From IMG/VR virus record IMGVR_UViG_648276644_000006: a stretch of DNA of 25,376 nucleotides; one strand, written 5' to 3'. The notes under the pieces are model-generated. The model saw nothing but the letters and a program-made list of their open reading frames with translations. It was not told the origin of the DNA and did no database searches. This DNA comes from a virus. Lineage: Duplodnaviria > Heunggongvirae > Uroviricota > Caudoviricetes. The position numbers and the translations under genes are program-made. Positions 1-13,374 of the stretch are shown piece after piece; position 1 is the first letter of the stretch, and every line of letters starts with the position of its first letter.

Positions 1-1053
1 TTACGGGGTAATGCCAACCGCTGCCGCCACTTTGTCGCCACTTGGCAGCGTTGCCAGAGGATTGAAACGGAGCGCCGTTTCCAGATGATCCGGTGCCAGA
101 TGTGCGTAACGCATAGTCATTTTTATATCGTGGTGTCCGAGAATTTTTTGTAAGGCCAGAATGTTTCCACCCGACATCATGAAGTGCGCCGCAAACGTAT
201 GGCGCAGAACGTGTGTGAGTTGACCGCGAGGGAGCACGATAGACGTTTTTTCCATCACGGATAAAAATTGAAAATAGCAGTCTGTGAAGAAATTGAACCC
301 ATCAAGCGCCATGATCTCTTCGTAAAGCTCTTTACTGATAGGGATGCTTCTGTTTTTCTTCCCCTTCGTTCTGACAAAGGTAATTCGGTATTTGGTCACC
401 TGTGAGCGAGTAAGATTTACGGCTTCACGCCAGCGTGCGCCTGTGCTTAAGCATATCTTAACTACCAGTGCCAGAATTGGGTCCTGACGTTTGCAATCAG
501 CCAGCAATTCAACAATCTGCTCATGGGTAAGCCATGCCATCTCTTTTTCTGCGATGGTGAATTTTCGCATGTTCTCCAGTGGGTTCGGATACGACCATTC
601 GCCCAGACGGGATAGTTCGCTAAAAACACTACTTAGATAGCTTTGCTCCAGGTTAATGGTGACCGGGCTTGCTCCTTTCTTCCATTTCTCGCTGAAGTAG
701 ATCTCGCCTGTCAGGCGTTTATCTCGATAGTGGGCAAACATTTTAGAGGTGAGATCGGTTGCAAGAGGATTGCCCAGAGCGTCAACCATCAACAGCAATT
801 TGTCATAGACATGCTGCCCAGCTGTCAGAGATTTACCATGTAGTTTGAACCATAGTTCAACCACGTCTTTCAGTGTTCGACGATCCACTGATTCACCCAG
901 CCAGGGCTTTGCTTCGGTTTCTTCCATCGTGTGACGCTCAAAAGCCAGAGCTTCGCCTTTGGTGGCGAATTGTTTACGCACACGACGTCCACTACGTCCG
1001 GCGGGGTAACATTCGCAAAGCCATTTTCCTGTGGTGAGTTTTCGTACTGCCAT
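1..1053 (-). CDS. int: Phage tyrosine integrase (P2/186 family), 350 aa, complete; stop codon at window bases 1-3
   Basis: Translation carries the conserved tyrosine-recombinase C-terminal region (CLSTGARWREA ... LRHTFAAHFMMSGGNILALQKILGHHDIKMTMRYAHLAP) and sits next to a leftward repressor gene as in P2-like prophages. Confidence 0.9.
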   Translation of the reverse strand: MAVRKLTTGKWLCECYPAGRSGRRVRKQFATKGEALAFERHTMEETEAKPWLGESVDRRTLKDVVELWFKLHGKSLTAGQHVYDKLLLMVDALGNPLATDLTSKMFAHYRDKRLTGEIYFSEKWKKGASPVTINLEQSYLSSVFSELSRLGEWSYPNPLENMRKFTIAEKEMAWLTHEQIVELLADCKRQDPILALVVKICLSTGARWREAVNLTRSQVTKYRITFVRTKGKKNRSIPISKELYEEIMALDGFNFFTDCYFQFLSVMEKTSIVLPRGQLTHVLRHTFAAHFMMSGGNILALQKILGHHDIKMTMRYAHLAPDHLETALRFNPLATLPSGDKVAAAVGITP

Positions 1054-1058
1054 AAAAA

Positions 1059-1078
1059 AGCCCTCATATCAGAGGGCT
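1059..1078 (-). terminator. Putative intrinsic terminator for the minus-strand cargo gene, immediately upstream of the int start codon
   Basis: Inverted repeat agccctc / gagggct (7-bp stem, 6-nt loop) at 1059-1078; on the minus strand it is followed by a T6 run (plus-strand A6 at 1054-1059) and then the int ATG. Confidence 0.4.
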
Positions 1079-1136
1079 AAATTTAACTGTATATACAACC
1101 AGTAATCAATGTGTGATTACTATGAAACATACATTG

Positions 1137-2813
1137 CTAAGCAACATGCAGTTCATCGTTGGCGGAAGTTGCTGCTTTGCGCTCTTGCTCAATCGCCAGT
1201 GACTCTCTATATTCTTTCGCTTCCGCAAACATTGTCCATTGTGCGTTGATGTTCATATCTTCAATAACAGACTTAATTTCTTTAATATTTACGTTGAAAA
1301 ACTCTTTTCGTGAGTTAATTTTATTGACCTGTTTTTCGTTGAAGACTTTATGCAGATGATTTTCTAATGATGGTGCATCATCACTATAAATCATCGCATG
1401 AACATCGAACGAAAAAGGAACACTAGCATCACCGAGTTCACGAACACGATCAAGTGGTTCAAGGCGGCGTGTCATTCCAATTTTATATACATCTTCGCCA
1501 AATGAGCCAATATTACTAATTATATAAACGTGGCCTGATCTAGTTTGTTGAGCCATAGAAATAGCTCGTTGGTTTTTAGCTTCAGCTTCTTCATATTTTA
1601 ACTGTAGTTCAGCTATTTTTTGCTCTAAAGCTAAGCGTTGTTCTTCATTTGCAAGCATAAGCTCTTTTGTTGCTTTATTTATAGCTTGCTGAATAGCTTT
1701 CTCTTCTTTTTCAGCTTCTTTTATCGCTTTTTCATACTCCCTACGAGCTCTTTCCTCTTCACGAAGTTGTTCTTTAATCCTTCTTTGCTCTTCTTTTTCT
1801 TCGAGCATAATTTCATTAACTGCAACTCCCCATTTTAGCTCGTTGAGTCGAGCTTGAAGATAGATGTCACTTATTTTTGCGGACCTAAAGGCAGAACCAT
1901 TGTAATTTACAAGTTGAAACGCATCTTTTATCTCTTGGGAAAGTTTTCCAAAATTGTTGTGTTTGACTTTTGATAAAATACTGTCAACTCTTCCATTGAA
2001 GGCATCTAAAACAAAGTTGATAGCAGTATTACGCCTGTTTTGTTCAACATAATCACACGAAGCAGCTTTATTAGTTTTTATTAATGATTTTGTTAACTCC
2101 CTGGCTTTTTGTAATTCCTTACCTGCATCTGTAAACTCATAATTTTCTGCCAATTCATCGAGAACGCTACGGTTAGGGATGATCCATTCATCACCATAAC
2201 CTTCAATTTTATTTTTCATTGATTTGGCAACTGCTTCATATTTTTCTGCAAACTCTTTAGCTTCATATGCTGAACCAGCAATCTCTTTTGCTCTTTCTTC
2301 TGCATCGGAAATAATTTTCACTGCATTGTCATTAGCATTTGAGATCAGCTCATTTGCTTTACTATTGGCATTATCAAGACGTTCTTTAGCTTTCAGGCGT
2401 GCATCGCGAGCGTCTTTAGTAATTGCTATAGCTTCGCTATTAGCGTTGCTTATTTTTATCTGAGCTTGATAATTTGCTTCGTTTACTGTCTTAGCAGCCT
2501 TTATTTGGGCTTCTTCTATTTTTTGCTTGGCTATTGAGTCTGCATTTTTTATCTTATTCTCTGCTTCCATCACTGCGCTGTGCAATTCTACGTATTGCCA
2601 TAATGGCGCAGCTCGTCCTTCAAGCTCTGATAGATCTCGTACAGTCTGTGCTAATTCTTCTTGATTTTCTTTCAGTTGGTTGGAAAGGGCTATGTTGTTA
2701 GCTGTCAAGGTATTTATAGCCGCTTTATATTTTTTGCTTTGCTTAAATAATATTACAGCTAGAATGGGGGCGAGAAATGCTAATAAGAATATAACGATGG
2801 AAAATGAATTCAT
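1137..2813 (-). CDS. Cargo protein, 558 aa: N-terminal transmembrane anchor, long coiled-coil/low-complexity region, C-terminal T5orf172 (GIY-YIG-like nuclease superfamily) domain; DUF4041-like architecture; candidate superinfection-exclusion/defence protein
   Basis: Hydrophobic N-terminus MNSFSIVIFLLAFLAPILAVILF; Ala/Lys/Glu/Asn-rich heptad-like repeats; C-terminal motif GHVYIISNIGSFGEDVYKIGMTRRLEPLDRVRELGDASVPFSFDVHAMIYSDDAPSLENHLHKVFNEKQVNKINSRKEFFNV typical of T5orf172/MUG113 domains. Gene is strongly AT-rich by eye and starts 20 bp after the cI stop, with an AAGGA Shine-Dalgarno upstream. Confidence 0.75.
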   Translation of the reverse strand: MNSFSIVIFLLAFLAPILAVILFKQSKKYKAAINTLTANNIALSNQLKENQEELAQTVRDLSELEGRAAPLWQYVELHSAVMEAENKIKNADSIAKQKIEEAQIKAAKTVNEANYQAQIKISNANSEAIAITKDARDARLKAKERLDNANSKANELISNANDNAVKIISDAEERAKEIAGSAYEAKEFAEKYEAVAKSMKNKIEGYGDEWIIPNRSVLDELAENYEFTDAGKELQKARELTKSLIKTNKAASCDYVEQNRRNTAINFVLDAFNGRVDSILSKVKHNNFGKLSQEIKDAFQLVNYNGSAFRSAKISDIYLQARLNELKWGVAVNEIMLEEKEEQRRIKEQLREEERARREYEKAIKEAEKEEKAIQQAINKATKELMLANEEQRLALEQKIAELQLKYEEAEAKNQRAISMAQQTRSGHVYIISNIGSFGEDVYKIGMTRRLEPLDRVRELGDASVPFSFDVHAMIYSDDAPSLENHLHKVFNEKQVNKINSRKEFFNVNIKEIKSVIEDMNINAQWTMFAEAKEYRESLAIEQERKAATSANDELHVA

Positions 2814-2833
2814 TTTTAAATCCTTTTACTATA

Positions 2834-3430
2834 TTAATTTGAAACTATTGTACTTCTTATACAAGCAACTACTTCAATATCAGAAAATGCACATTCAAAG
2901 CTATTCTCTGTACTTGTAATTTTAATCATACCTTTTGGAAGCTTTGTGATTTTTCGAATGGAATAGGTTCCGTCGATGTTGATTAACCAGTGCCCATCAA
3001 GTACTTCAGAAAATTTTTGATCACAAATGTATGTGACGAGCCCATCCTGAATAACAATTGGTGATGAAAGATTTGCAGGAAGAAATGATGAATCGAAGAC
3101 ATATGAACCATCTTCAATCATTTTGCCTGCGGTAAGGCGAAACTTGGCAAGCTCTTCTGTAGCTGCTGTCAGCGAGCTTTGCTTAAGGCCTTGCCCGGTG
3201 GTTAACCATTTCAGTGAGGTTCCTGTTTCAAGAGCACATTGGATTATCCAGTCTGCAGGAAACGTATCCCGCAAATACCTGTTCGCCAGAGTGCTTTTTG
3301 ATACTTCCAAGTGATCAGCTAAAGCCTGTCGTGTCGTAAAGCCATAAGCTTCGACTAATCGCTCAATCGCAGCCTTACCACCTTTATTGGGATTTATTTT
3401 GATCTCATTTGGGTACTTTGATGTTGACAT
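2834..3430 (-). CDS. cI: Phage CI repressor, 186-type (HTH N-terminal domain plus C-terminal oligomerisation domain), 198 aa
   Basis: ERLVEAYGFTTRQALADHLEVSKSTLANRYLRD ... CALETGTSLKWLTTGQG matches the 186 CI-type HTH domain family; leftward orientation next to int; divergent from the early operon. Confidence 0.85.
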   Translation of the reverse strand: MSTSKYPNEIKINPNKGGKAAIERLVEAYGFTTRQALADHLEVSKSTLANRYLRDTFPADWIIQCALETGTSLKWLTTGQGLKQSSLTAATEELAKFRLTAGKMIEDGSYVFDSSFLPANLSSPIVIQDGLVTYICDQKFSEVLDGHWLINIDGTYSIRKITKLPKGMIKITSTENSFECAFSDIEVVACIRSTIVSN

Positions 3431-3477
3431 ATCTCTTTTGCGATCCTAGTATCAATTTTGTCCCCATTTGGGTACTT
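3406..3477. promoter_or_regulatory. Lysogeny switch region: two identical 13-mers catttgggtactt (3406-3418 and 3465-3477) flanking a promoter-like element; candidate CI operator sites
   Basis: Exact 13-bp direct repeat 59 bp apart, one copy inside the first codons of cI and one just downstream of the predicted pR -10; a degenerate third copy (cattttgggata) lies at 3751-3762 between the Apl-like and CII-like genes. Confidence 0.4.
3424..3452 (+). promoter_or_regulatory. Putative early rightward promoter (pR-like): -35 TTGACA (3424-3429), 17-bp spacer, -10 TAGTAT (3447-3452)
   Basis: Perfect -35 hexamer with 17-bp spacing to a 4/6 -10 hexamer, about 70 bp upstream of the Apl-like start codon; the -35 overlaps the cI start codon on the other strand. 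Confidence 0.45.
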
Positions 3478-3525
3478 GTCACGATTACTACAGGCTCACC
3501 ACAAGCCAATAGGAGATGTTGCATC

Positions 3526-3747
3526 ATGACCCCTAACATTTCAATAACTCTGAATACGCCACATGTCACAATTGAGCGTTATAGCGAACTTACTGGTCTT
3601 TCTATCGACACCATCAACGATATGCTGGCTGATGGTCGCATCCCTCGCCATCGCCTTCGGAAAGACAAGAAAAGAGAAAAGGTAATGATCAACCTTGCTG
3701 CTCTTACCGTTGATGCACTTACTGATTGCAATGTTGTATTCAACTAG
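3526..3747 (+). CDS. Apl/Cox-like excisionase and switch regulator (small HTH protein), about 73 aa
   Basis: First gene of the rightward operon facing cI; AGGAGA Shine-Dalgarno 9 bp upstream of ATG 3526; small basic protein ([12 protein letters not shown]). Start chosen inside the longer ORF 3409-3747. Confidence 0.55.
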
Positions 3748-3779
3748 TTCCATTTTGGGATACATCAGGGGTGTCGACT

Positions 3780-4289
3780 ATGTTTGATTACCAAGTTTCC
3801 AAACATCCACATTTTGACGAAGCCTGTCGTGCATTCGCACTGCGCCACAACCTGGTGCAACTGGCAGAACGTGCAGGCATGAATGTACAGATTCTGCGGA
3901 ACAAGCTGAACCCAGCTCAACCTCATTTATTAACCGCACCAGAAATCTGGTTGCTTACCGATCTGACTGAAGATTCAACGCTGGTAGATGGCTTTCTGGC
4001 ACAGATTCACTGCCTGCCATGTGTACCGATTAATGAGGTGGCAAAAGAGAAACTGCCGCATTATGTCATGAGTGCAACCGCAGAGATCGGGCGTGTTGCT
4101 GCAGGTGCGGTATCCGGCGATGTAAAAACCAGTGCAGGTCGTCGTGATGCTATCAGCAGCATTAACTCTGTAACACGGCTGATGGCGCTGGCCGCTGTTT
4201 CATTGCAGGCCCGTTTACAGGCTAATCCTGCGATGGCGAGTGCAGTTGATACCGTTACTGGCCTCGGTGCTTCATTCGGTTTGCTGTGA
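3780..4289 (+). CDS. cII: CII-like transcriptional activator of lysogeny (186 CII family), 169 aa
   Basis: [45 protein letters not shown] ... [27 protein letters not shown] resembles 186 CII as I recall it; the length from ATG 3780 equals the 169 aa of 186 CII; position after the apl-like gene. Confidence 0.7.
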
Positions 4290-4296
4290 GGTGCTT

Positions 4297-4497
4297 ATGC
4301 TGACGAAAGAACCATCATTTGCATCGCTGCTGGTAAAACAAAGCCCGGCAATGCACTACGGTCACGGCTGGATCATGGGGGAGGATGGTAAACGCTGGCA
4401 TCCGTGCCGTTCACAGGATGAATTGCTGGCAGAACTATCTACGAAAAAACGGGGGAACAAATGGCTATTGAAGGCGCTGCGGCAACTGTTCCATTAA
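4297..4497 (+). CDS. Hypothetical early-operon protein, 66 aa
   Basis: ORF with GAGGTG Shine-Dalgarno-like sequence before ATG 4297; overlaps the next gene by 37 nt. No recognisable domain. Confidence 0.4.
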   Translation: MLTKEPSFASLLVKQSPAMHYGHGWIMGEDGKRWHPCRSQDELLAELSTKKRGNKWLLKALRQLFH

Positions 4498-4802
4498 GCC
4501 CCGGTGAACGCCTGAATGGACTTAATCACATTGCGGAGTTAAGGGCGAAAGTTTTTGGCCTGAATATTGAGTCAGAGCTTGAGCGGTTTATTAAAGATAT
4601 GCGTGATCCACGGGATATCAATAATGAACAAAATAAACGAGCACTGGCTGCCATATTCTTTATGGCAAAAATTCCAGCTGAACGTCATAGCATCAGCATT
4701 AATGAGCTGACCACTGACGAAAAGCGGGAGCTGATTAAAGCAATGAATCATTTTCGTGCAGTGGTGAGCTTATTTCCCAGACGGCTAACCATGCCGAATT
4801 AA
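4461..4802 (+). CDS. Hypothetical early-operon protein, 113 aa
   Basis: ORF with GGGGGA Shine-Dalgarno-like sequence upstream of ATG 4461; backbone-like composition. Confidence 0.55.
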   Translation: MAIEGAAATVPLSPGERLNGLNHIAELRAKVFGLNIESELERFIKDMRDPRDINNEQNKRALAAIFFMAKIPAERHSISINELTTDEKRELIKAMNHFRAVVSLFPRRLTMPN

Positions 4803-4869
4803 CCAACTAATGAAATTAATGGCGTAAACCCGCCGGGCATCCCTTTATCTAAATTCAGGAGAATTGATT

Positions 4870-5103
4870 ATGCGTAATATTGAAACCCTCACGACTAAAA
4901 CCGGACCGGATGACGCAGGGCTTAATATTTTACTGACAGAGGCTCGTCTGGAAGAACGCCGGGCAAGGGCTGAAGCAATGGCAGCTCGCCTTGATAGCCT
5001 GGCGTGTCATATATCATCCCGTCAGCTAAACCACGTGGAAGCGGCAGAACTGCTGCGTGTGACTGCTGAAGCAATCCAGAACGAAGCGCAGGAGATCCAC
5101 TAA
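4870..5103 (+). CDS. Hypothetical early-operon protein, 77 aa
   Basis: AGGAG Shine-Dalgarno 8 nt upstream of ATG 4870; stop overlaps the next start (TAATG). Confidence 0.55.
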   Translation: MRNIETLTTKTGPDDAGLNILLTEARLEERRARAEAMAARLDSLACHISSRQLNHVEAAELLRVTAEAIQNEAQEIH

Positions 5104-5330
5104 TGGCTGATGCAATGGATCTCGTACAGCAGCGCGTTGAAGAAGAACGCCAGCGCCATATCCGTGCTGCCCGTGCCAAAACGCCGGGCGTGTCCCGCGT
5201 GCTTTGCGTTGAGTGTGAAGCGCCAATTCCGCCAGCACGCCGCCGTGCCATTCCGGGTGTGCAGCTTTGCATTACATGTCAGGAAATCGCAGAGCTGAAA
5301 GGCAAACATTACAACGGAGGTGCTGTATGA
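5103..5330 (+). CDS. TraR/DksA-family C4 zinc-finger protein, 75 aa
   Basis: CVEC-x17-CITC four-cysteine spacing characteristic of the DksA/TraR zinc finger; translationally coupled to flanking genes. Confidence 0.75.
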   Translation: MADAMDLVQQRVEEERQRHIRAARAKTPGVSRVLCVECEAPIPPARRRAIPGVQLCITCQEIAELKGKHYNGGAV

Positions 5331-6184
5331 GCACCATCTTGAAATGGGCGGGAAATAAAACCGCCGTAATGTCCGAACTGAAAAAACATCTTCCTGCTGG
5401 TCCGCGACTAGTTGAACCTTTCGCGGGTTCCTGTGCTGTGATGATGGAGACGGATTATCCCTGCTATCTGGTTGCGGATATTAATCCTGATTTAATCAAC
5501 CTCTATAAAAAGGTTGCCGCTGATTGTGAATCGTTTATATCTCGCGCCAAAGTTTTATTTGAGATCGCAAACAGGGAGGTGGCTTATTACAACATAAGGC
5601 AGGAGTTTAATTACTCAACTGAAATTACTGATTTCATGAAAGCGGTATATTTCCTGTATCTCAATCGTCACGGTTACCGTGGGTTATGTCGCTATAACAA
5701 GAGCGGGCATTTCAACATTCCCTACGGTAATTATAAAAATCCGTATTTCCCTGAAAAAGAAATTCGCGCTTTTGCAGAAAAAGCCCAGCGAGCAACGTTT
5801 ATCTGCGCCAGCTTTGATGAAACGCTGGCGATGTTGAAGGCGGGGGATGTGGTGTATTGCGATCCGCCTTATGACGGTACGTTTTCCGGCTATCACGCTG
5901 ACGGCTTTACTGAAGATGACCAGTATCACCTGGCATCCGTTCTTGAACATCGGTCATCAGAAGGACATCCGGTCATTGTTTCTAACAGTGACACATCCCT
6001 GATCCGTTCGCTGTATCGCAATTTTACTCACCACTATATCAAGGTAAAACGCAGCATCGGCGTAGCAGCTGGTGAGAGTAAATCAGCAAAAGAAATCATT
6101 GCTGTTTCCGGGCCGCGCTGCTGGGTGGGATTTGATTATTCGCGTGGCGTGGATAGTTCTGCCGTGTACGGAGTACGTGCATGA
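5327..6184 (+). CDS. dam: Orphan DNA adenine (N6) methyltransferase, Dam family, 285 aa
   Basis: N-terminal SAM-binding region (LKWAGNK ... [10 protein letters not shown]) and the catalytic DPPY motif (VYCDPPYDG) line up with E. coli Dam; no adjacent restriction endonuclease gene; GGAGG Shine-Dalgarno before ATG 5327. Confidence 0.9.
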
Positions 6185-8034
6185 GCCATGCCGATATGAG
6201 CAACTGCTGCGGCTTTAACGAGGCTGCCGCATCGTTCTCATGGAACAGCCCGAAAAAGGCCATTAACCCTTATCTGGACCCGGCGGAAGTTGCGCCGGTT
6301 TCTGCGCTTTCAAACCTGATCACTCTGTACGCTGCCGATAACGAGCAGGAACAACTGCGCCGCGAGGCACTGAGTGATCAGGTCTGGGAGCGTTATTTCT
6401 TTAATGAATCCCGTGATCCTGTCCAACGCGAAATAGAGCAGGATAAGCTCATTAGCCGGGCAAAGTTGGCGCATGAGCAGCAGCGTTTTAACCCGGACAT
6501 GGTCATTCTGGCAGACGTCAGCGCCCAGCCCTCCCATATCAGCAAGCCGCTGATGCAACGTATTGAATACTTCAGCAGCCTGGGCAGGCCAAAGGCTTAT
6601 TCCCGCTATTTACGTGAGACGATTAAGCCATGTCTGGAACGACTGGAGCATGTACGCGACAGCCAGCTATCTGCATCTTTTCGTTTTATGGCAAGCCATG
6701 TAGGGCTGGACGGCCTGCTGATTCTGCCTGAAATGAGTCAGGATCAGGTGAAACGCCTGTCTACCCTTGTCGCTGCGCATATGAGCATGTGCCTTGATGC
6801 AGCTTGTGGTGATTTGTATGCCACCGATGACGTTAAGCCAGAAGAAATCCGCAAGACATGGGAAAAGGTGGCAGCGGAAACCCTGCGTCTGGATGTCATC
6901 CCGCCTGCGTTTGAGCAACTCCGTCGGAAAAGAAACCGCCGTAAACCCGTGCCCTATGAACTCATTCCGGGTTCGCTGGCGCGTATGTTGTGCGCCGACT
7001 GGTGGTACCGGAAATTATGGAAAATGCGTTGCGAATGGCGGGAAGAGCAGTTGCGTGCTGTCTGCCTGGTCAGCAAAAAAGCATCTCCCTATGTCAGCTA
7101 TGAAGCCGTGATGCATAAACGTGAGCAGCGCCGCAAGTCACTGGAGTTTTTCCGTTCTCATGAACTGGTGAACGAAGAGGGCGACACGCTGGATATGGAA
7201 GACGTGGTAAACGCCAGCAGCAGCAACCCGGCGCACCGCCGCAATGAGATGATGGCCTGTGTTAAAGGTCTGGAGCTTATCGCGGAAATGCGCGGTGACT
7301 GCGCCGTTTTCTACACCATTACCTGTCCGTCACGTTTCCATTCCACGCTCAATAACGGCAGACCAAACCCAACCTGGACAAATGCGACGGTAAGACAAAG
7401 CAGCGATTATCTGGTCGGCATGTTTGCTGCATTTCGTAAGGCGATGCACAAAGCCGGGTTGCGCTGGTATGGCGTGCGGGTGGCTGAGCCGCATCATGAC
7501 GGTACAGTTCACTGGCACCTGTTGTGTTTCATGCGCAAAAAAGACCGCCGCGCCATTACTGCATTGTTGCGTAAGTTTGCCATCCGTGAAGACCGCGAGG
7601 AACTGGGTAATAACACTGGTCCACGCTTTAAATCTGAGCTGATAAACCCGCGCAAAGGAACGCCGACAAGCTACATCGCGAAATACATCAGTAAGAACAT
7701 TGACGGGCGTGGTCTGGCTGGCGAGATCAGCAAGGAAACGGGTAAATCCCTGCGTGATAACGCTGAATACGTTAATGCCTGGGCGTCTCTGCATCGTGTT
7801 CAGCAATTCCGCTTCTTTGGTATTCCGGGACGTCAGGCTTACCGTGAACTTCGCTTGCTGGCTGGTCAGGCGGCAAGGCAACAGGGTGACAAAAAGCAGG
7901 TGCGCCGGTACTGGATAACCCGCGTCTTGATGCCATTCTGGCTGCTGCTGATGCTGGTGTTTTGCCACCTACATCATGAAGCAGGGCGGCGTACTGGTTC
8001 CCCGCAAATATCACCTCATCAGAACCGCTTATGA
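6181..8034 (+). CDS. A: Replication initiation endonuclease A (P2 gpA / 186 A family, rolling-circle initiator), N-terminal and central part; reading frame is lost near 7895
   Basis: 617-aa ORF in the A position after dam, with the gpA-like catalytic region (HWHLLCF, tyrosine-rich YIAKYISKN segment). The last roughly 45 codons ([26 protein letters not shown]...) look like out-of-frame translation. Confidence 0.8.
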
Positions 8035-8593
8035 AATCAACGAAGAGCCAACCGCCTATGGCGATCACGGTATTCGTATTTATGGCATCTGGTCACCCAT
8101 TGCAGAGGGCAAGATCTGCACTCATGCAGTGAAGTGGAAAATGGTTCGTAAGGCCGTTGACGTTCAGGAGGCGGCAGCCGACCAGGGCGCTTGCGCCCCT
8201 TGGACTCGTGGCAATAACTGTCCCCTTGCTGAAAATTTGAACCAACAGGAGAAAGATAAATCAGCTGATGGGGACCCCAGAACGGACATTACCAGCATGG
8301 ATGACAAGGAGTTGCACGATTACCTGCACAGTATGAGCAAAAAAGAGCGCCGGGAACTGGCAGCAAGGTTACGCCTGGTGAAACCGAAACGGCGTAAAGA
8401 CTACAAACAGCGAATTACAGACCATCAGCGACTGCAGCTCGTGTATGAGCTGAAGTCCAGAGGATTTGATGGCAGCGAGAAAGAGGTTGATTTACTCCTT
8501 CGCGGAGGCAGTATTCCGTCAGGAGCAGGCCTGCGTATCTTCTATCGGAACCAGCGTTTGCAGGAAGATGATCAGTGGCGGAACCTGTATTAA
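7976..8593 (+). CDS. A: C-terminal portion of replication protein A, encoded in a different frame from the upstream A ORF (frameshifted gene or sequencing error)
   Basis: 205-aa ORF overlapping the end of the 6181-8034 ORF in another frame; combined length of the two pieces is in the range of intact A proteins; the third frame across 7890-7976 is also open and protein-like. Confidence 0.6.
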
Positions 8594-8685
8594 TTACGCG
8601 GGTTAACAATTCGTGCTCTTAATAATACCAGGCATATCAGGCTGATGAACGTAAAAAAACGTTTTACATCAGTAAGATTATTATA

Positions 8686-8705
8686 TACTGTAAATATAAA
8701 CAGTG
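8686..8705 (+). promoter_or_regulatory. LexA (SOS) box overlapping an AT-rich promoter-like region
   Basis: TACTGTAAATATAAACAGTG matches the CTGT-N8-ACAG SOS box consensus with the AT-rich centre; lies about 45 bp upstream of the small ORF and DinI-like gene. Confidence 0.6.
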
Positions 8706-8746
8706 GTTATGGATACAGTATTGCGTGTGGTGTCATAGGAGGAAAG

Positions 8747-8935
8747 ATGCAGGACTATTTTTTGGAGTCTTTGAAGCTCCAGCGCATTGATTTTTTTCTT
8801 AAGCTTGTAGCGGCTAGTGAGTGTAGTGATGAAGAGAAGGGGCTGGCTTTGCAGTGGGTTTCTGAACTAACAGATGAACTCATGGCAAAAATCAGAACCC
8901 ACGAATACAACCGCTCAATGGATGTCATCAGTTGA
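8747..8935 (+). CDS. Small SOS-regulated hypothetical protein, 62 aa (possible Tum-like antirepressor position)
   Basis: Strong AGGAGGA Shine-Dalgarno 4-6 nt upstream of ATG 8747, downstream of the LexA box; the longer 96-aa ORF from 8645 would start upstream of the box and is less likely. Confidence 0.45.
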   Translation: MQDYFLESLKLQRIDFFLKLVAASECSDEEKGLALQWVSELTDELMAKIRTHEYNRSMDVIS

Positions 8936-9179: not shown

Positions 9180-9371
9180 GAAACGTTGCCCCCAAGAGGA
9201 TTCATTCGAATGGGGGCTAGTTTGGGCAATGAGTGAAATAAGGCGTAAGGCGTAAGGTGGGGGGGCATTTTGATAAATGATCGTCCGCTTTGTGCCAGAA
9301 GCGAACGTTTCTTCTGCTATCTTTCGTCAATTAACGAATGGCAGACTAATTTGCAACGGATAATCTGAATT

Positions 9372-9399: not shown

Positions 9400-9507
9400 T
9401 TTACCAATAATAACCTTACAATGTACACTACCTATTGAATTTTCCATAGTTGGCCTTTGGCTCTACTTACCATCTATGTTTATGTATTTTATCAAAATGG
9501 ACTAAAA

Positions 9508-11400
9508 ATGCACAATACGTACATCAAAGACTATATAGAATATTACCTTAGCCTTAAAACTGAACCTCAATACGCCATTATGCTTAAAGGTGCTTGGGGA
9601 TCAGGTAAAACTTGGTTCATTGAACGAGTTCTTGAAGAATATAAGCAAAAGCATTCAGAGTTCAAATTTCTTAAAGTGAGTTTGTATGGCGTCAACTCTA
9701 TTGAGCAGATTGAAGATGAGTTCTATCGTCAACTTCATCCTATTCTATCAAACAAAGCCCTTATCTTTGGTGCAAATGTACTAAAAAATACGCTTAAGGC
9801 TACTTTCAAGATCGATTTCAATGGCGATAATAAGTCTGACGTAGATGTCAATGCCAGTGTCCCCACCATTAATCTTAGCGACTTTAGCAGAGAACCAGAT
9901 GGTTTTGTGCTGGTCTTTGATGATATCGAGAGAGCTGGTATAGATTTACCAATCTTATTTGGATATATAAATCACTTTGTAGAAGTAAACGGATACAAAG
10001 CGATCCTGGTTGCCAATGAAGAAGAAATAATCAACAGAGAAAAGCGAATAAATAATGATGATGAGAAATCTAGCAGTGAATACATAAGAACAAAAGAAAA
10101 GCTTGTAGGTAAAACATTTGAAGTAACGTCAGATTTACCTAGTGCTTGTAATGTTTTCTTGGGCGTAATTAGTAGTTTACACGTAGCTAATATATTTAAA
10201 GAAGATATGCAGACCATAGAACACCTCTATGTGTCGGCGAAATATAATAATCTAAGACATTTGAGGCAGTTCTTTCTTGATGTACAACGCATCATTTCCC
10301 TTTTGGGAGATAAATATGTCAGCAACGACGATTTTATGAAAGTATTTTTCCAGCAGTTATTAATTTTCTCGATGGAGTACCGGGGAGGGAACCTTAACTA
10401 CGAGGATTTCAATTCAATCGGCAATGTAAATTATAGTATGTTTTTAGATAAAGGGCGTACCAAAACTAAGTATGACATGATCGTCGAGAAATATTCATCA
10501 CCTGTATTAACCGAGACGTTACTGGATGGTGCGTACTGGAGAGAGCTAATCTGTGATGGAAAGGTAACGCATGATCTTCTCGCTCAGCTGGATATTACGC
10601 GATTTTTTAGAAGCACCGATGCCCAAGCATGGGAGTATTTGTGGAACTATCGAGAACTTAATGAAACTATGCTTAATGAACAGTACGCCATTGCCAAGGA
10701 TAATCTATTTTCAGGTAAGATCACTTCCTTAGGTGAACTCCTGATGACCGCGAGTATTTTGCTGGCATTGGCGAAAGAAGGTTTAACCACAGATGCTGTT
10801 GATGACATTATAAATGAGACAAAACATCATATAGATATTTATTACAATGGATTAGGACCTGAAGATATACATCAGGAGTATGCGCAAAGACATTATAATG
10901 AGTTAATGGCATGGCGTGGCTTTGGTTTTCTTGACAGGGATAGCGATGAATTCAAACTCATTATTGAGCATATTAAGATAGCGCAGAAGAAACGGTTTGA
11001 TGAATCAATTCCGGAGTTTGCATTGAAGTTCAGCGATGAGTTGCAAAGAGGGAATTTATCGTTTGTATCTGAATTGTGTCATTCTAATAATAGGCAGCTA
11101 AATCTTCATAACGTGCCTTTTTTACACTTGGTTTCTCCTGAAGTTTTCATTGAAAGCTATAGGAAACTTGACCCAATCATCATGAGGAAACTGGCATTTA
11201 GCTTGAGGGATCGTTATTCTGATAGGGATGCCAGAACCAGACTGACCGAAGAATACAACTGGTTGATTAGCCTAAAAGAGATAGCTGTAGATTTCACTCA
11301 AAACGCAGCCAATAACTCCTTTCAGGTTTTTCATGTAAAGTTTTTTATTGACTATGCACTAACTAATGCAATCAAATTATTTACTGAGGGAACTGATTAA
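9508..11400 (+). CDS. KAP-family P-loop NTPase, about 630 aa (start uncertain; an alternative TTG lies at 9457); candidate defence/cargo gene
   Basis: N-terminal Walker A in the KAP-type form GAWGSGKT (LKGAWGSGKTWFIERV); a hydrophobic stretch followed by two acidic residues (FVLVFDDIERAG), Walker B-like; large size; gene and flanks are conspicuously AT-rich compared with the phage backbone. Confidence 0.65.
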   Translation: MHNTYIKDYIEYYLSLKTEPQYAIMLKGAWGSGKTWFIERVLEEYKQKHSEFKFLKVSLYGVNSIEQIEDEFYRQLHPILSNKALIFGANVLKNTLKATFKIDFNGDNKSDVDVNASVPTINLSDFSREPDGFVLVFDDIERAGIDLPILFGYINHFVEVNGYKAILVANEEEIINREKRINNDDEKSSSEYIRTKEKLVGKTFEVTSDLPSACNVFLGVISSLHVANIFKEDMQTIEHLYVSAKYNNLRHLRQFFLDVQRIISLLGDKYVSNDDFMKVFFQQLLIFSMEYRGGNLNYEDFNSIGNVNYSMFLDKGRTKTKYDMIVEKYSSPVLTETLLDGAYWRELICDGKVTHDLLAQLDITRFFRSTDAQAWEYLWNYRELNETMLNEQYAIAKDNLFSGKITSLGELLMTASILLALAKEGLTTDAVDDIINETKHHIDIYYNGLGPEDIHQEYAQRHYNELMAWRGFGFLDRDSDEFKLIIEHIKIAQKKRFDESIPEFALKFSDELQRGNLSFVSELCHSNNRQLNLHNVPFLHLVSPEVFIESYRKLDPIIMRKLAFSLRDRYSDRDARTRLTEEYNWLISLKEIAVDFTQNAANNSFQVFHVKFFIDYALTNAIKLFTEGTD

Positions 11401-11834: not shown

Positions 11835-12410
11835 ATGCTTTTACCCGTAAGTGTTACATCGTGTGGCTTGTATCACCCCTACTGGCATTTGGGAGAGCGC
11901 AACCCTCATAGCGATGAACTATCAAGGCAGATGATGGATTTTAAGGATGAAAATAATCGTAATCATCAAAGGGCTATTAACCGTTTTTCTCGATTAGCTA
12001 TAGATAAGGTTGGGCGGTTAGTAATCAGAGGTGGCGGTGGGCGTTTTGTTGAGTCTCCTTTTTCGATAGCAGTCGTCCCATCTCACACTGAAGGCAGAAT
12101 TTCACCGGCTTTGATTGAGGTCGCCGAGCGAATCGTAAATGTTCACCGTCGGGGCATTGTTGATTGCTGTTTGGAAAGAACACGCACTGTTCCTAGCGCA
12201 CATCGTGAAGGAGGAGATCGCTCAATTACTGGTCACATGTCTAGTATCAGAGTTAGGGGTGGTAACCTCATGGGGCGAAATGTGTTACTACTAGATGATG
12301 TTAAAACAACAGGCGGTAGTTTGTCTGCGTGTTTTTATTTACTGGAGTCTGCAGGAGCTGGAGTTATAATGCCATTAGCTCTGCTAGAAACTGCAAACTA
12401 TGAGGAGTAG
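11835..12410 (+). CDS. Phosphoribosyltransferase (PRTase) domain protein, ComF-like, 191 aa (start uncertain; in-frame ATGs also at 11931 and 11934)
   Basis: Canonical PRPP-binding loop VLLLDDVKTTGGSLSAC near the C-terminus; glycine-rich loop RGGGGR upstream; stop overlaps the start of the next gene. Confidence 0.7.
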   Translation: MLLPVSVTSCGLYHPYWHLGERNPHSDELSRQMMDFKDENNRNHQRAINRFSRLAIDKVGRLVIRGGGGRFVESPFSIAVVPSHTEGRISPALIEVAERIVNVHRRGIVDCCLERTRTVPSAHREGGDRSITGHMSSIRVRGGNLMGRNVLLLDDVKTTGGSLSACFYLLESAGAGVIMPLALLETANYEE

Positions 12411-13374
12411 CAAAGTGCACTCAGAAGAATTAAAAAATACACTTGGATTAGCTATTCAAATCGGGAAGCTAGCATCTGATCAAAGTGTATTGAAATTCTT
12501 TGAGCTTATTGATTTTGATGTTATTCGTGATATACGCGACTTAACTGAGATGGTTAATAGCCACGGGTTTCTAAAAGATAAAATATCTGAGACTGATTTT
12601 CTAATAGCGAATGCTGAATTGGAGAACCACCATGTTAATGGTGTGGAGCTAATACCATATGGGTCTGAATTCTATCCTCTTAGTTTAGCGTTTACTCCTA
12701 ATCCACCATCAATTCTCTACATAAAAGGGGATAAAAGTATACTAAAAGAATTGCCGGGTGTCGCAATTGTAGGATCCCGTGATACTTCCCCTGCAGGGGA
12801 AGAAATAACGAGGCGAATCACTAATCAGATAGTGTCTGCTGGGTATATTGTTGTAAGTGGGTTAGCAATAGGCACTGATGCGAATGCTCATAAGGCAACG
12901 TTACAAGCAAAAGGAAAAACCATTGCTGTCTTGGCGCATGGTCTTGAGGAGGCTAAGCCGAAGCAAAACAGTCGACTTGCTCAAGAGATTCTGGATAAAG
13001 GTGGTGCATGGATTTCTGAGTATCCTATGGGGCGACCGGCCCAGAAACAATCATTTGTACAAAGAAATCGGATACAAGTTGGATTATCTGCAGGTTCAAT
13101 TTTAATCGAGGCTGCGTTAAATAGCGGAACGATAACTCAAGCTGAGTTTGCAAATAAGGCGAAAAGACCAGTGTTTGCGGTTGTACCTCACCTACCTAAT
13201 AATCCGCTTAATCTTAATTGTGAGGGAACAGTTGATTTAGTTAAGAGCAACATGGCTAGAGCGTTAAAAACAAAACGGGATTATGATGATGTGATTATGA
13301 TCATAAATGAGTCTCGGGAGTATTTGTTAGAGCTAAAATGGCCAGGGAAACAGAGTACATTAGACTTGATTTAA
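12400..13374 (+). CDS. DprA/Smf-like (SLOG/Rossmann-fold DNA-processing protein A family) protein, 324 aa
   Basis: YPLSLAFTPNPPSILYIKGDKSILKELPGVAIVGSRDTSPAGEE ... VVSGLAIGTDANAHKATLQAKGKTIAVLAHGLEE ... QRNRIQVGLSAGSILIEAALNSGTITQAEFANKAKRPVFAV follows the DprA domain pattern (PP-LF-GxxxxL; VAIVGSR; SGxAxGxDxxAH; TIAVLxxGL; RNRI; SGTxxTAxxA). ATG 12400 overlaps the PRTase stop by 11 nt (ATGAGGAGTAG); an alternative GTG at 12415 has a GAGGAG Shine-Dalgarno. Confidence 0.8.
   Translation: MRSSKVHSEELKNTLGLAIQIGKLASDQSVLKFFELIDFDVIRDIRDLTEMVNSHGFLKDKISETDFLIANAELENHHVNGVELIPYGSEFYPLSLAFTPNPPSILYIKGDKSILKELPGVAIVGSRDTSPAGEEITRRITNQIVSAGYIVVSGLAIGTDANAHKATLQAKGKTIAVLAHGLEEAKPKQNSRLAQEILDKGGAWISEYPMGRPAQKQSFVQRNRIQVGLSAGSILIEAALNSGTITQAEFANKAKRPVFAVVPHLPNNPLNLNCEGTVDLVKSNMARALKTKRDYDDVIMIINESREYLLELKWPGKQSTLDLI

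What the first reader, a model, noticed from the sequence alone, without database searches (positions are those of the whole stretch)
7885..7980. Replication gene A is broken by two frame changes located at homopolymer runs
The long A ORF (frame 1) decays into implausible sequence after about 7897 ([26 protein letters not shown]). Frame 3 is open and protein-like from 7890 to the TGA at 7977 ([23 protein letters not shown]...). The clearly A-like C-terminus ([28 protein letters not shown]...) runs in frame 2 from 7976. Restoring a single continuous protein needs a +1 base at the A5 run (7891-7895) and a +1 base at the T4 run (7959-7962). This means either two genuine slipped-strand mutations, giving a replication-defective, domesticated prophage that still keeps intact cargo and structural genes, or homopolymer sequencing errors.
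Basis: partly seen in the sequence, partly recalled or inferred. Interest (0 to 1): 0.5.

Follow-up and report, generated by a model that had tools for sequence, protein, structure and literature searches.

The report
Two missing bases split phage gene A
The replication gene of a P2-like prophage in the draft genome of E. coli H591 is split by two single-base gaps, which are most likely base-calling errors of an old draft assembly and not a truly disabled virus, so the finding is ordinary.

Summary
The window is E. coli H591 scaffold GL884434.1. Its P2/186-like replication gene A is written as two ORFs, 6181-8034 and 7976-8593. All intact homologues are one 2415-nt, 804-aa gene. The window lacks two bases. 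The other is a T of GGTTG (single T at 7958), not of the T4 run at 7960-7963. Restoring both gives a protein identical to gpA of near-identical prophages in three independent assemblies. Over 9.8-13.7 kb those assemblies differ from H591 only by these two bases and one SNP.

Site 1 looks like a recurrent miscall. The same A5 call, or a GAC-to-GC call, turns up only in assemblies that carry other homopolymer errors. A second assembly of H591-type reads places the missing A differently. Site 2 was found nowhere else but is in both H591 assemblies.

I put about 0.72 on both gaps being sequencing artefacts. I put about 0.2 on gene A being truly broken, most likely at site 2. Programmed frameshifting and a conserved split gene are rejected. 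Interest is low. Reads or Sanger sequencing across 7850-8000 would settle it.

The parts
6181..8593 (+). Whole replication gene A (gpA, an HUH rolling-circle initiator) as it would read with the two missing bases restored: 2415 nt, 804 aa.
   Evidence: Homologues are a single 2415-nt CDS. The repaired translation is identical to L033 gpA. Pfam Phage_GPA matches residues 188-510 with E about 1e-127.
6181..8034 (+). 5' ORF as deposited (617 aa, EGI46584.1). Authentic gpA sequence runs up to codon about 571. The last 46 or so residues are out-of-frame read-through.
   Evidence: The HWH motif at residue 444 and YIAKY at 498 lie upstream of the break.
7889..7896 (+). Site 1: GACAAAAAG. The A run 7891-7895 is A5 here and A6 in homologues (GACAAAAAAG).
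   Evidence: The Logan assembly of SRR024321 instead writes GCAAAAAAG at this place.
7896..7958 (+). Segment between the two gaps. The authentic gpA frame is the third frame here ([21 protein letters not shown]).
7956..7959 (+). Site 2: GGTG here, GGTTG (or GGCTG) in all homologues. One T is missing next to T7958.
   Evidence: The variant is absent from IMG/VR and JGI metagenome contigs, while at least 120 IMG/VR contigs carry the wild-type string.
7960..7963 (+). It is unchanged and is T4 in every homologue.
7976..8593 (+). 3' ORF as deposited (205 aa, EGI46585.1). It corresponds to gpA residues 600-804 and begins at an internal Met codon of the intact gene.
   Evidence: It has no Pfam family. 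Among homologues, synonymous changes outnumber non-synonymous ones in this frame.

Best explanation
The split of gene A is most likely an artefact of the H591 draft sequence and not a property of the strain. The true gene is probably the intact 804-aa P2/186-type replication initiator: an HUH nuclease that nicks the phage origin and starts rolling-circle replication.

Both gaps sit in the same kind of context. A short run of a base is followed by one different base and then a longer run of the first base: A-C-AAAAAA at site 1 and TT-G-TTTT at site 2. In flow-based sequencing (pyrosequencing), the signals of two successive flows of the same nucleotide are then easily shared out wrongly or under-called.

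Shown here:
- the two gaps and their exact positions;
- the intact state in near-identical prophages;
- the disagreement between two assemblies at site 1;
- the recurrence of site-1 miscalls in error-prone assemblies.

Inferred or from memory:
- that H591 was sequenced by 454 (from memory; supported only by the homopolymer disagreements seen here);
- the flow cross-talk mechanism;
- that site 2 is also an error.
For: (1) The window is GL884434.1 of GCA_000176675.2, E. coli H591. H591 is an Australian human isolate of a Broad Institute genome series (PMC4422515).

(2) Three independent assemblies carry the same prophage at the same chromosomal site: L033 (GCA_016970435.1, with 12 similar places not shown), L035 (Logan SRR3993794) and L036 (Logan ERR6160678). 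All three carry A6 and GGTTG at the two sites. Gene calls give an 804-aa gpA in L033 and L036; the L035 contig ends inside the gene. Over 9.8-13.7 kb they differ from H591 only by the two missing bases and one substitution. At that divergence, two independent real 1-bp deletions 67 nt apart are very improbable.

(3) The repaired gene is identical in protein to L033 gpA. It is identical at all 2413 aligned bases to strain MS20657.

(4) All 103 sampled full-length matches in complete E. coli genomes span 2415 nt.

(5) L014 is the Logan assembly of SRR024321. It shares every SNP and the 7-bp repeat that mark the H591 variant. It writes site 1 as GTG-C-AAAAAA where the deposit has GTG-AC-AAAAA. 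It also disagrees with the deposit at two other homopolymers, T7 against T6 at 8757 and A6 against A5 at 9503. Each version of site 1 is one flow call away from the wild type GAC-A6, but two flow calls away from the other version.

(6) Elsewhere, the A5 call occurs only in contigs that also carry other single-base homopolymer undercalls: L007, L013 and L039, with 8, 2 and more than 20 of them. The GC-A6 call occurs in two IMG/VR contigs from isolate genomes, L049 and L064, which carry other homopolymer differences.

(7) No other frameshifting indel appears in about 20 kb of the window that can be aligned to MS20657.
Against: - Site 2 is a TT-to-T loss, which is not a typical homopolymer error.
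- Site 2 is present in both the deposited assembly and the Logan assembly. The Logan assembly discards 31-mers seen only once (PMC12424806), so at least two reads carry it.
- Site 2 does not recur in any other noisy assembly.
- The rest of the H591 sequence compared here is clean. In window 1-8813, all 36 runs of five bases, 13 of six and 2 of seven agree with the clone-mates. Two errors 67 nt apart therefore need a local cause that I could not show. There are no Ns or contig ends nearby.
- Both assemblies agree that one base is missing at site 1.
- The sequencing platform of H591 was not verified with the tools.
Confidence: 0.72

Rival explanations
1. Gene A of H591 is truly broken by the TT-to-T deletion at 7958, and the A-run gap is a sequencing miscall. 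The prophage would make a 599-aa protein that keeps the nuclease domain but lacks the last 211 authentic residues. It could probably not replicate after induction, while its defence cargo and structural genes stay intact.
For: Site 2 is not a homopolymer of four or more and is in both H591 assemblies with at least two reads. It recurs in no error-prone assembly. Site 1 alone behaves like a recurrent miscall. Real loss of gpA does occur in this phage family, through large deletions (L009-L011; partial copies in BL21 and other strains).
Against: Clone-mates with only one SNP of difference over 13.7 kb have the intact gene, so the mutation would have to be very recent. None of 103 sampled complete genomes shows a net 1-bp change in this gene. 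The site has the same run / other base / longer run context as site 1, 67 nt away, which suits a shared technical cause.
Confidence: 0.17
2. Both deletions are real. They arose either one after the other, or in a single error-prone repair or replication event, giving a replication-dead domesticated prophage.
For: Both assemblies of H591-type reads lack one base at each site. Homopolymer slippage at an A6 run is a classic real mutation. The prophage carries defence cargo that a host could profit from keeping.
Against: A second frameshift brings no benefit once the first has broken the gene. With only one SNP of difference from clone-mates over 13.7 kb, two independent indels within 68 nt are extremely unlikely. 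The two assemblies disagree on what the site-1 lesion is. The imperfect inverted repeat that links the two sites folds no better than shuffled sequence (z = -0.29), and the changes do not make it more perfect, so a templated double mutation has no support.
Confidence: 0.06
3. The gene is expressed across the gaps by programmed ribosomal frameshifting or transcriptional slippage. Alternatively, it is a natural two-gene arrangement of nuclease plus a separate C-terminal protein.
For: An ATG at 7976 opens the 205-aa ORF. The same 205-aa ORF is also called alone in some degraded prophages (L009-L011).
Against: None of the intact homologues examined has the gaps. Expression would need two +1 shifts. 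An A5 run is too short for known transcriptional slippage (established knowledge). The stand-alone 205-aa ORFs in L009-L011 result from a 2.45-kb deletion that fuses dam to gpA, not from a conserved gene boundary. No Shine-Dalgarno-like sequence precedes 7976 (sequence).
Confidence: 0.01

Closest known systems
Replication initiator gpA of P2/186-like phages (Pfam PF05840 Phage_GPA; for example Escherichia phage Cartapus CAH1234778.1 and Salmonella phage RE-2010 YP_007003504.1)
   Same: It is 95.9-96.8% identical in DNA over the whole gene. It has the same gene order, dam then gpA then a 62-aa ORF then a DinI-like gene. The Phage_GPA domain covers residues 188-510. An HUH-type motif VHWHLL and a YIAKY double-tyrosine motif are present. 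That these motifs are catalytic is established knowledge for phiX174 and P2 A proteins and was not tested here.
   Different: The deposited H591 sequence lacks two bases, so it reads as ORFs of 617 and 205 aa and not as one 804-aa ORF.
Consensus indel errors of flow-based (pyrosequencing-type) draft assemblies
   Same: The changes are single-base losses beside runs of the same base. Two assemblies of the same kind of reads disagree at this site and at two other homopolymers. The same site is miscalled in other error-prone assemblies.
   Different: The second gap is in a TT dinucleotide, which is unusual for this error class. It was not seen in any other noisy assembly.
Defective P2-like prophages of E. 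coli (for example the partial copy in E. coli B/BL21, and the dam-gpA deletion remnants L009-L011)
   Same: These are P2-family prophages in which gene A is no longer intact while other genes remain.
   Different: Those cases are large deletions or truncations seen in many independent assemblies. The H591 lesions are two single bases seen only in H591 data, in an otherwise complete prophage.

Membership tests
P2-type replication initiator gpA (Phage_GPA, HUH endonuclease) | Phage_GPA domain | tested here: met
   PF05840 matches with E 1.1e-127 over residues 188-510 of the 617-aa ORF and gives the same match in the intact homologue.
P2-type replication initiator gpA (Phage_GPA, HUH endonuclease) | HUH metal-binding motif and a pair of active-site tyrosines (YxxxY) | tested here: met
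   VHWHLL lies at residue 444 and YIAKY at 498, both upstream of the break. Their catalytic role is taken from established knowledge of phiX174 and P2 A proteins and was not tested.
P2-type replication initiator gpA (Phage_GPA, HUH endonuclease) | One uninterrupted ORF of about 800 aa | tested here: not met
   The deposited sequence reads as 617 aa plus 205 aa. The feature is met only after an A and a T are added.
P2-type replication initiator gpA (Phage_GPA, HUH endonuclease) | Conserved neighbourhood in the early operon (CII, Fil, DUF5347, DUF2732, TraR-like, Dam, gpA, DinI-like) | tested here: met
   Gene calls of L006 compared with phages and other prophages.
Genuine pseudogene (real frameshift mutations) | The lesion is reproducible in independent sequence data of the strain or in related isolates | tested here: inconclusive
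   The exact 617-aa product is on one contig only. The clone-mates L033, L035 and L036 are intact. The Logan assembly of SRR024321 repeats site 2, but it writes site 1 differently and is probably built from the same reads. Raw reads could not be inspected.
Sequencing/assembly artefact of flow-based reads | Different assemblies of the same kind of data disagree at the site | tested here: met
   At site 1 the deposit has GAC-A5 and Logan L014 has GC-A6. There are two further homopolymer disagreements within 4.5 kb.
Sequencing/assembly artefact of flow-based reads | The same miscall recurs in unrelated error-prone assemblies and is absent from finished genomes | tested here: inconclusive
   Met for site 1: L007, L013, L039, L049 and L064, against 0 of 103 complete genomes. 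Not met for site 2: no other occurrence was found.
Sequencing/assembly artefact of flow-based reads | The genome was produced on a homopolymer-error-prone platform | not testable with these tools
   I recall that this Broad series was sequenced by 454. The tools carry no platform metadata. Only the homopolymer disagreements support it.
Programmed frameshift / recoding site | The frame change is conserved among homologues | tested here: not met
   All 18 translated homologues are in frame with A6 (or an equivalent) and GGTTG or GGCTG. So are at least 110 IMG/VR contigs.

The most novel reading that the evidence does not exclude
H591 really carries a very recently inactivated gene A. The prophage is otherwise complete and 186-like, and it holds three defence loci: PD-Lambda-1, a PDC-S49 KAP NTPase and Shosta. 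It would have been caught at the first step of domestication, with the nuclease domain still expressed as a truncated protein.
Probability: 0.2. Interest if true: 0.3.

Novelty: not a real feature. Interest (0 to 1): 0.1.

Why it matters
If the gaps are artefacts, the value is only in curation. The two CDS EGI46584.1 and EGI46585.1 should be read as one gene. The string A-C-AAAAAA in this gene can be flagged as a spot where flow-based and other homopolymer-error-prone assemblies repeatedly create false frameshifts.

If the TT-to-T change were real, H591 would hold a freshly replication-disabled P2-like prophage with intact defence cargo. That would be a minor but clean example of early prophage domestication, a process that is already well known.

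Tried and rejected
- **Conserved split gene.** Rejected. Every intact homologue is one 804-aa ORF. The 205-aa ORF stands alone only in deletion remnants.
- **Programmed frameshift or slippage.** Rejected. The gaps are not conserved and there is no suitable signal.
- **Other isolates with the same lesions.** Nothing was found beyond H591-type data. I used an exact-protein look-up of both ORFs, look-ups of neighbouring cargo proteins, and exact DNA scans of IMG/VR and JGI metagenomes.
- **Recurrent real slippage at the A run.** Rejected as evidence for a real mutation. Every other A5 or GC-A6 instance lies in a contig that carries other homopolymer errors.
- **Templated double mutation in a quasi-palindrome.** The two sites lie in complementary arms, GGTG.CAAAA and TTTTG.CACC, and the minimum-energy fold pairs them. 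The fold is no better than shuffled sequence (z = -0.29). The repeat finder reports no such inverted repeat. The changes do not improve the pairing.
- **General sloppiness of the H591 assembly.** Not seen. No other frameshifting indel appears in about 20 kb against MS20657 or in 13.7 kb against the clone-mates. The clustering of the two gaps therefore stays unexplained in detail.
- **Solved structures.** A sequence search for gpA against the PDB gave no match.
- **Literature on P2 gpA, ori and cis-action.** The full-text search returned nothing useful. Statements on P2 gpA biology rest on my own knowledge.
- One of my fold inputs (the L033 coordinates) covered the wrong stretch, and I ignore it.

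Full report
**What is in the sequence**

The window matches scaffold GL884434.1 of GCA_000176675.2, E. coli H591, base for base. H591 is an Australian human isolate from a Broad Institute genome series (PMC4422515).

The region is a complete P2/186-like prophage inserted next to rcdA/ybjJ. Its gene order is integrase, a cargo gene, CI, CII, Fil, DUF5347, DUF2732, a TraR-like gene, Dam, gene A, a 62-aa ORF, a DinI-like gene, more cargo, then portal, terminase, capsid, lysis and tail genes.

Gene A is written as two ORFs:
- 6181-8034 (617 aa, EGI46584.1);
- 7976-8593 (205 aa, EGI46585.1).

Frame 1 decays into ...[29 protein letters not shown].... The next frame reads [21 protein letters not shown] up to the TGA at 7977. 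The C-terminal part runs from the ATG at 7976.

**Comparison with intact genes**

The best phage matches annotate one CDS over this span, of 2415 nt in Cartapus, RE-2010 and 4LV2017 and 2412 nt in vB_EcoM-813R9. All 60 best matches and all 44 full-length matches of a spread sample among complete E. coli genomes span 2415 nt against the window's 2413. That is 103 distinct records.

The alignment places the two missing bases as follows:
1. One is in the A run: GACAAAAAAG in homologues, GACAAAAAG at 7889-7896 here.
2. The other is in GGTTG (GGCTG in two homologues), which here is GGTG with a single T at 7958.

The T4 run at 7960-7963 is unchanged in every homologue.

Adding the A and the T gives an 804-aa ORF identical to gpA of L033. 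Apart from the two gaps, the gene matches strain MS20657 at all 2413 bases. There is no substitution between window positions 5714 and 8711.

The Phage_GPA domain (residues 188-510), the HUH-type motif VHWHLL (residue 444) and the YIAKY tyrosine pair (residue 498) all lie upstream of the breaks at codons 571 and 593. In the C-terminal third, synonymous changes outnumber non-synonymous ones among homologues in the authentic frame, for example 17:6 and 19:10. It is therefore coding sequence of the same gene.

**Is the lesion real?**

Three lines of evidence bear on this.

*Clone-mates.* An exact look-up of the cargo nuclease next to the integrase found the same prophage at the same chromosomal site in three independent assemblies: GCA_016970435.1 (L033, with 12 similar places not shown), Logan SRR3993794 (L035) and Logan ERR6160678 (L036). 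All three carry the intact sequence at both sites. Gene calls give an 804-aa gpA in L033 and L036; the L035 contig ends inside the gene. Over 9.8-13.7 kb they differ from H591 only by the two missing bases and one SNP at window 4652. At so small a divergence, two independent real 1-bp deletions 67 nt apart in one gene are very unlikely. A second frameshift also brings no advantage once the first has broken the gene.

*A second assembly of H591-type reads.* L014 is the Logan assembly of SRR024321. It shares all the SNPs and the 7-bp repeat copy that distinguish the H591 variant. It disagrees with the deposit at four places in 4.5 kb:
- T7 against T6 at 8757;
- A6 against A5 at 9503;
- two adjacent positions at site 1, where it writes GTG-C-AAAAAA and the deposit writes GTG-AC-AAAAA.

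The reads therefore carry homopolymer-length noise. This fits my recollection, not verified here, that this Broad series was sequenced by 454. Each version of site 1 is one flow call away from the wild-type GAC-A6, but two flow calls away from the other version.

*Recurrence elsewhere.* The A5 call occurs in L007, L013 and the IMG/VR contig L039. Each carries further single-base undercalls at homopolymers: 8, 2 and more than 20. The GC-A6 call occurs in two IMG/VR contigs from isolate genomes, L049 and L064, which also carry other homopolymer differences. None of the 103 complete genomes shows either call. Site 1 therefore behaves as a recurrent miscall spot.

**What does not fit so neatly**

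Site 2 is a TT-to-T loss. It is present in the deposit and in the Logan contig. The Logan contig keeps only 31-mers seen at least twice (PMC12424806). Site 2 was found nowhere else: 0 IMG/VR contigs and 0 JGI metagenome contigs, against at least 120 IMG/VR contigs with the wild-type string. The noisy assemblies that miscall site 1 have it intact.

The rest of the H591 sequence I could compare is clean. No other frameshifting indel appears in about 20 kb against MS20657. In the first 8.8 kb, all other runs of five to seven bases agree with the clone-mates. There is no gap or N nearby. Two errors 67 nt apart therefore call for a local cause.

One shared feature is visible. Both sites have the pattern short run / one other base / longer run of the same base: A-C-AAAAAA and TT-G-TTTT. 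In flow-based chemistry this puts two positive flows of the same nucleotide in successive cycles. I offer signal cross-talk between those flows as the likely mechanism. This is inference. There are 124 such contexts in the window, and the others are correct.

**Weighing the readings**

I put about 0.72 on both gaps being artefacts. I put about 0.17 on site 2 being real with site 1 an artefact, about 0.06 on both being real, and about 0.01 on recoding or a natural split gene.

The stand-alone 205-aa ORFs in L009-L011 come from a 2.45-kb deletion that joins dam to gpA at a TAC microhomology, inside degraded prophages.

A templated double mutation was considered because the two sites lie in complementary arms (GGTG.CAAAA and TTTTG.CACC). 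The fold is no better than shuffled sequence (z = -0.29), and the changes do not improve the pairing.

**If the lesion were real**

The product would keep the whole nuclease domain but lose the last 211-233 authentic residues. From what is known of P2, late gene expression depends on replication, and gpA acts in cis at an origin inside its own gene (my knowledge). The prophage would then probably neither replicate nor lyse after induction, while its defence cargo would stay in place. That would be an early step of domestication, a well-known process, so even this reading is of modest interest.

**Verdict**

The novelty class is 'not a real feature' and interest is low. Inspection of the reads or Sanger sequencing across 7850-8000 would settle it.

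Noticed in passing
L009:3900-4010, L010, L011 (Logan SRR31412737, SRR17847162, SRR9139843): A 2.45-kb deletion joins codon 66 or so of dam to gpA at a TAC microhomology (GATTAC|TGGATAAC). It leaves only the 205-aa C-terminal ORF, inside prophages that also have truncated portal and terminase genes. This is a real, recurring way in which this phage family loses gene A.
   Followed up: partly
window 1137-2813 (-), 9508-11400 (+), 11835-13374 (+): The prophage carries three defence-type cargo loci at the usual P2 variable spots. They are a PD-Lambda-1 (SNIPE/T5orf172) nuclease (E 5e-120), a KAP-family P-loop NTPase matching the candidate system PDC-S49 (E 6e-161), and a ShosT/ShosA (Shosta) pair (E 4e-14 and 3e-70). 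All are intact.
   Followed up: partly
window 9233-9252: An intergenic 7-bp unit TAAGGCG is present in three tandem copies here and in L014, against two copies in strain MS20657.
   Followed up: no
L014:3757 and L014:4504 (window 8757 and 9503): The Logan assembly of SRR024321 calls T7 and A6 where the deposited H591 sequence and its relatives have T6 and A5. This shows homopolymer-length noise in that read set.
   Followed up: yes
L012:1805-1820 (Logan ERR13326773): This contig has another single-base loss a few bases upstream of site 1: GGGGAC where relatives have GGGTGAC or GGGGGAC. It also splits gpA into 599 aa plus 205 aa.
   Followed up: partly
window 7885-7969: The two gap sites lie in the two arms of an imperfect inverted repeat (GGTGACAAAA ... 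TTTTGCCACC), and the missing A and T would pair with each other. The fold energy is ordinary (z = -0.29), so I treat this as a coincidence of an A run and a T run.
   Followed up: yes
window 6181-8593; GenBank EGI46584.1 and EGI46585.1: Both fragments are named 'putative replication endonuclease from retron EC67' in the source record. The gene is the ordinary P2-type gpA, and no retron is evident next to it.
   Followed up: no
NZ_CP053601.1 (E. coli BL21) 845645-846765, hit H158: BL21 holds only the last 46% of this gene at 95% identity. This fits the long-known defective P2-like prophage of E. coli B (my knowledge).
   Followed up: no
window 4652: This is the only substitution between H591 and its clone-mates L033, L035 and L036 over up to 13.7 kb. 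It lies in the DUF5347 gene, and H591 shares its base with strain MS20657.
   Followed up: no
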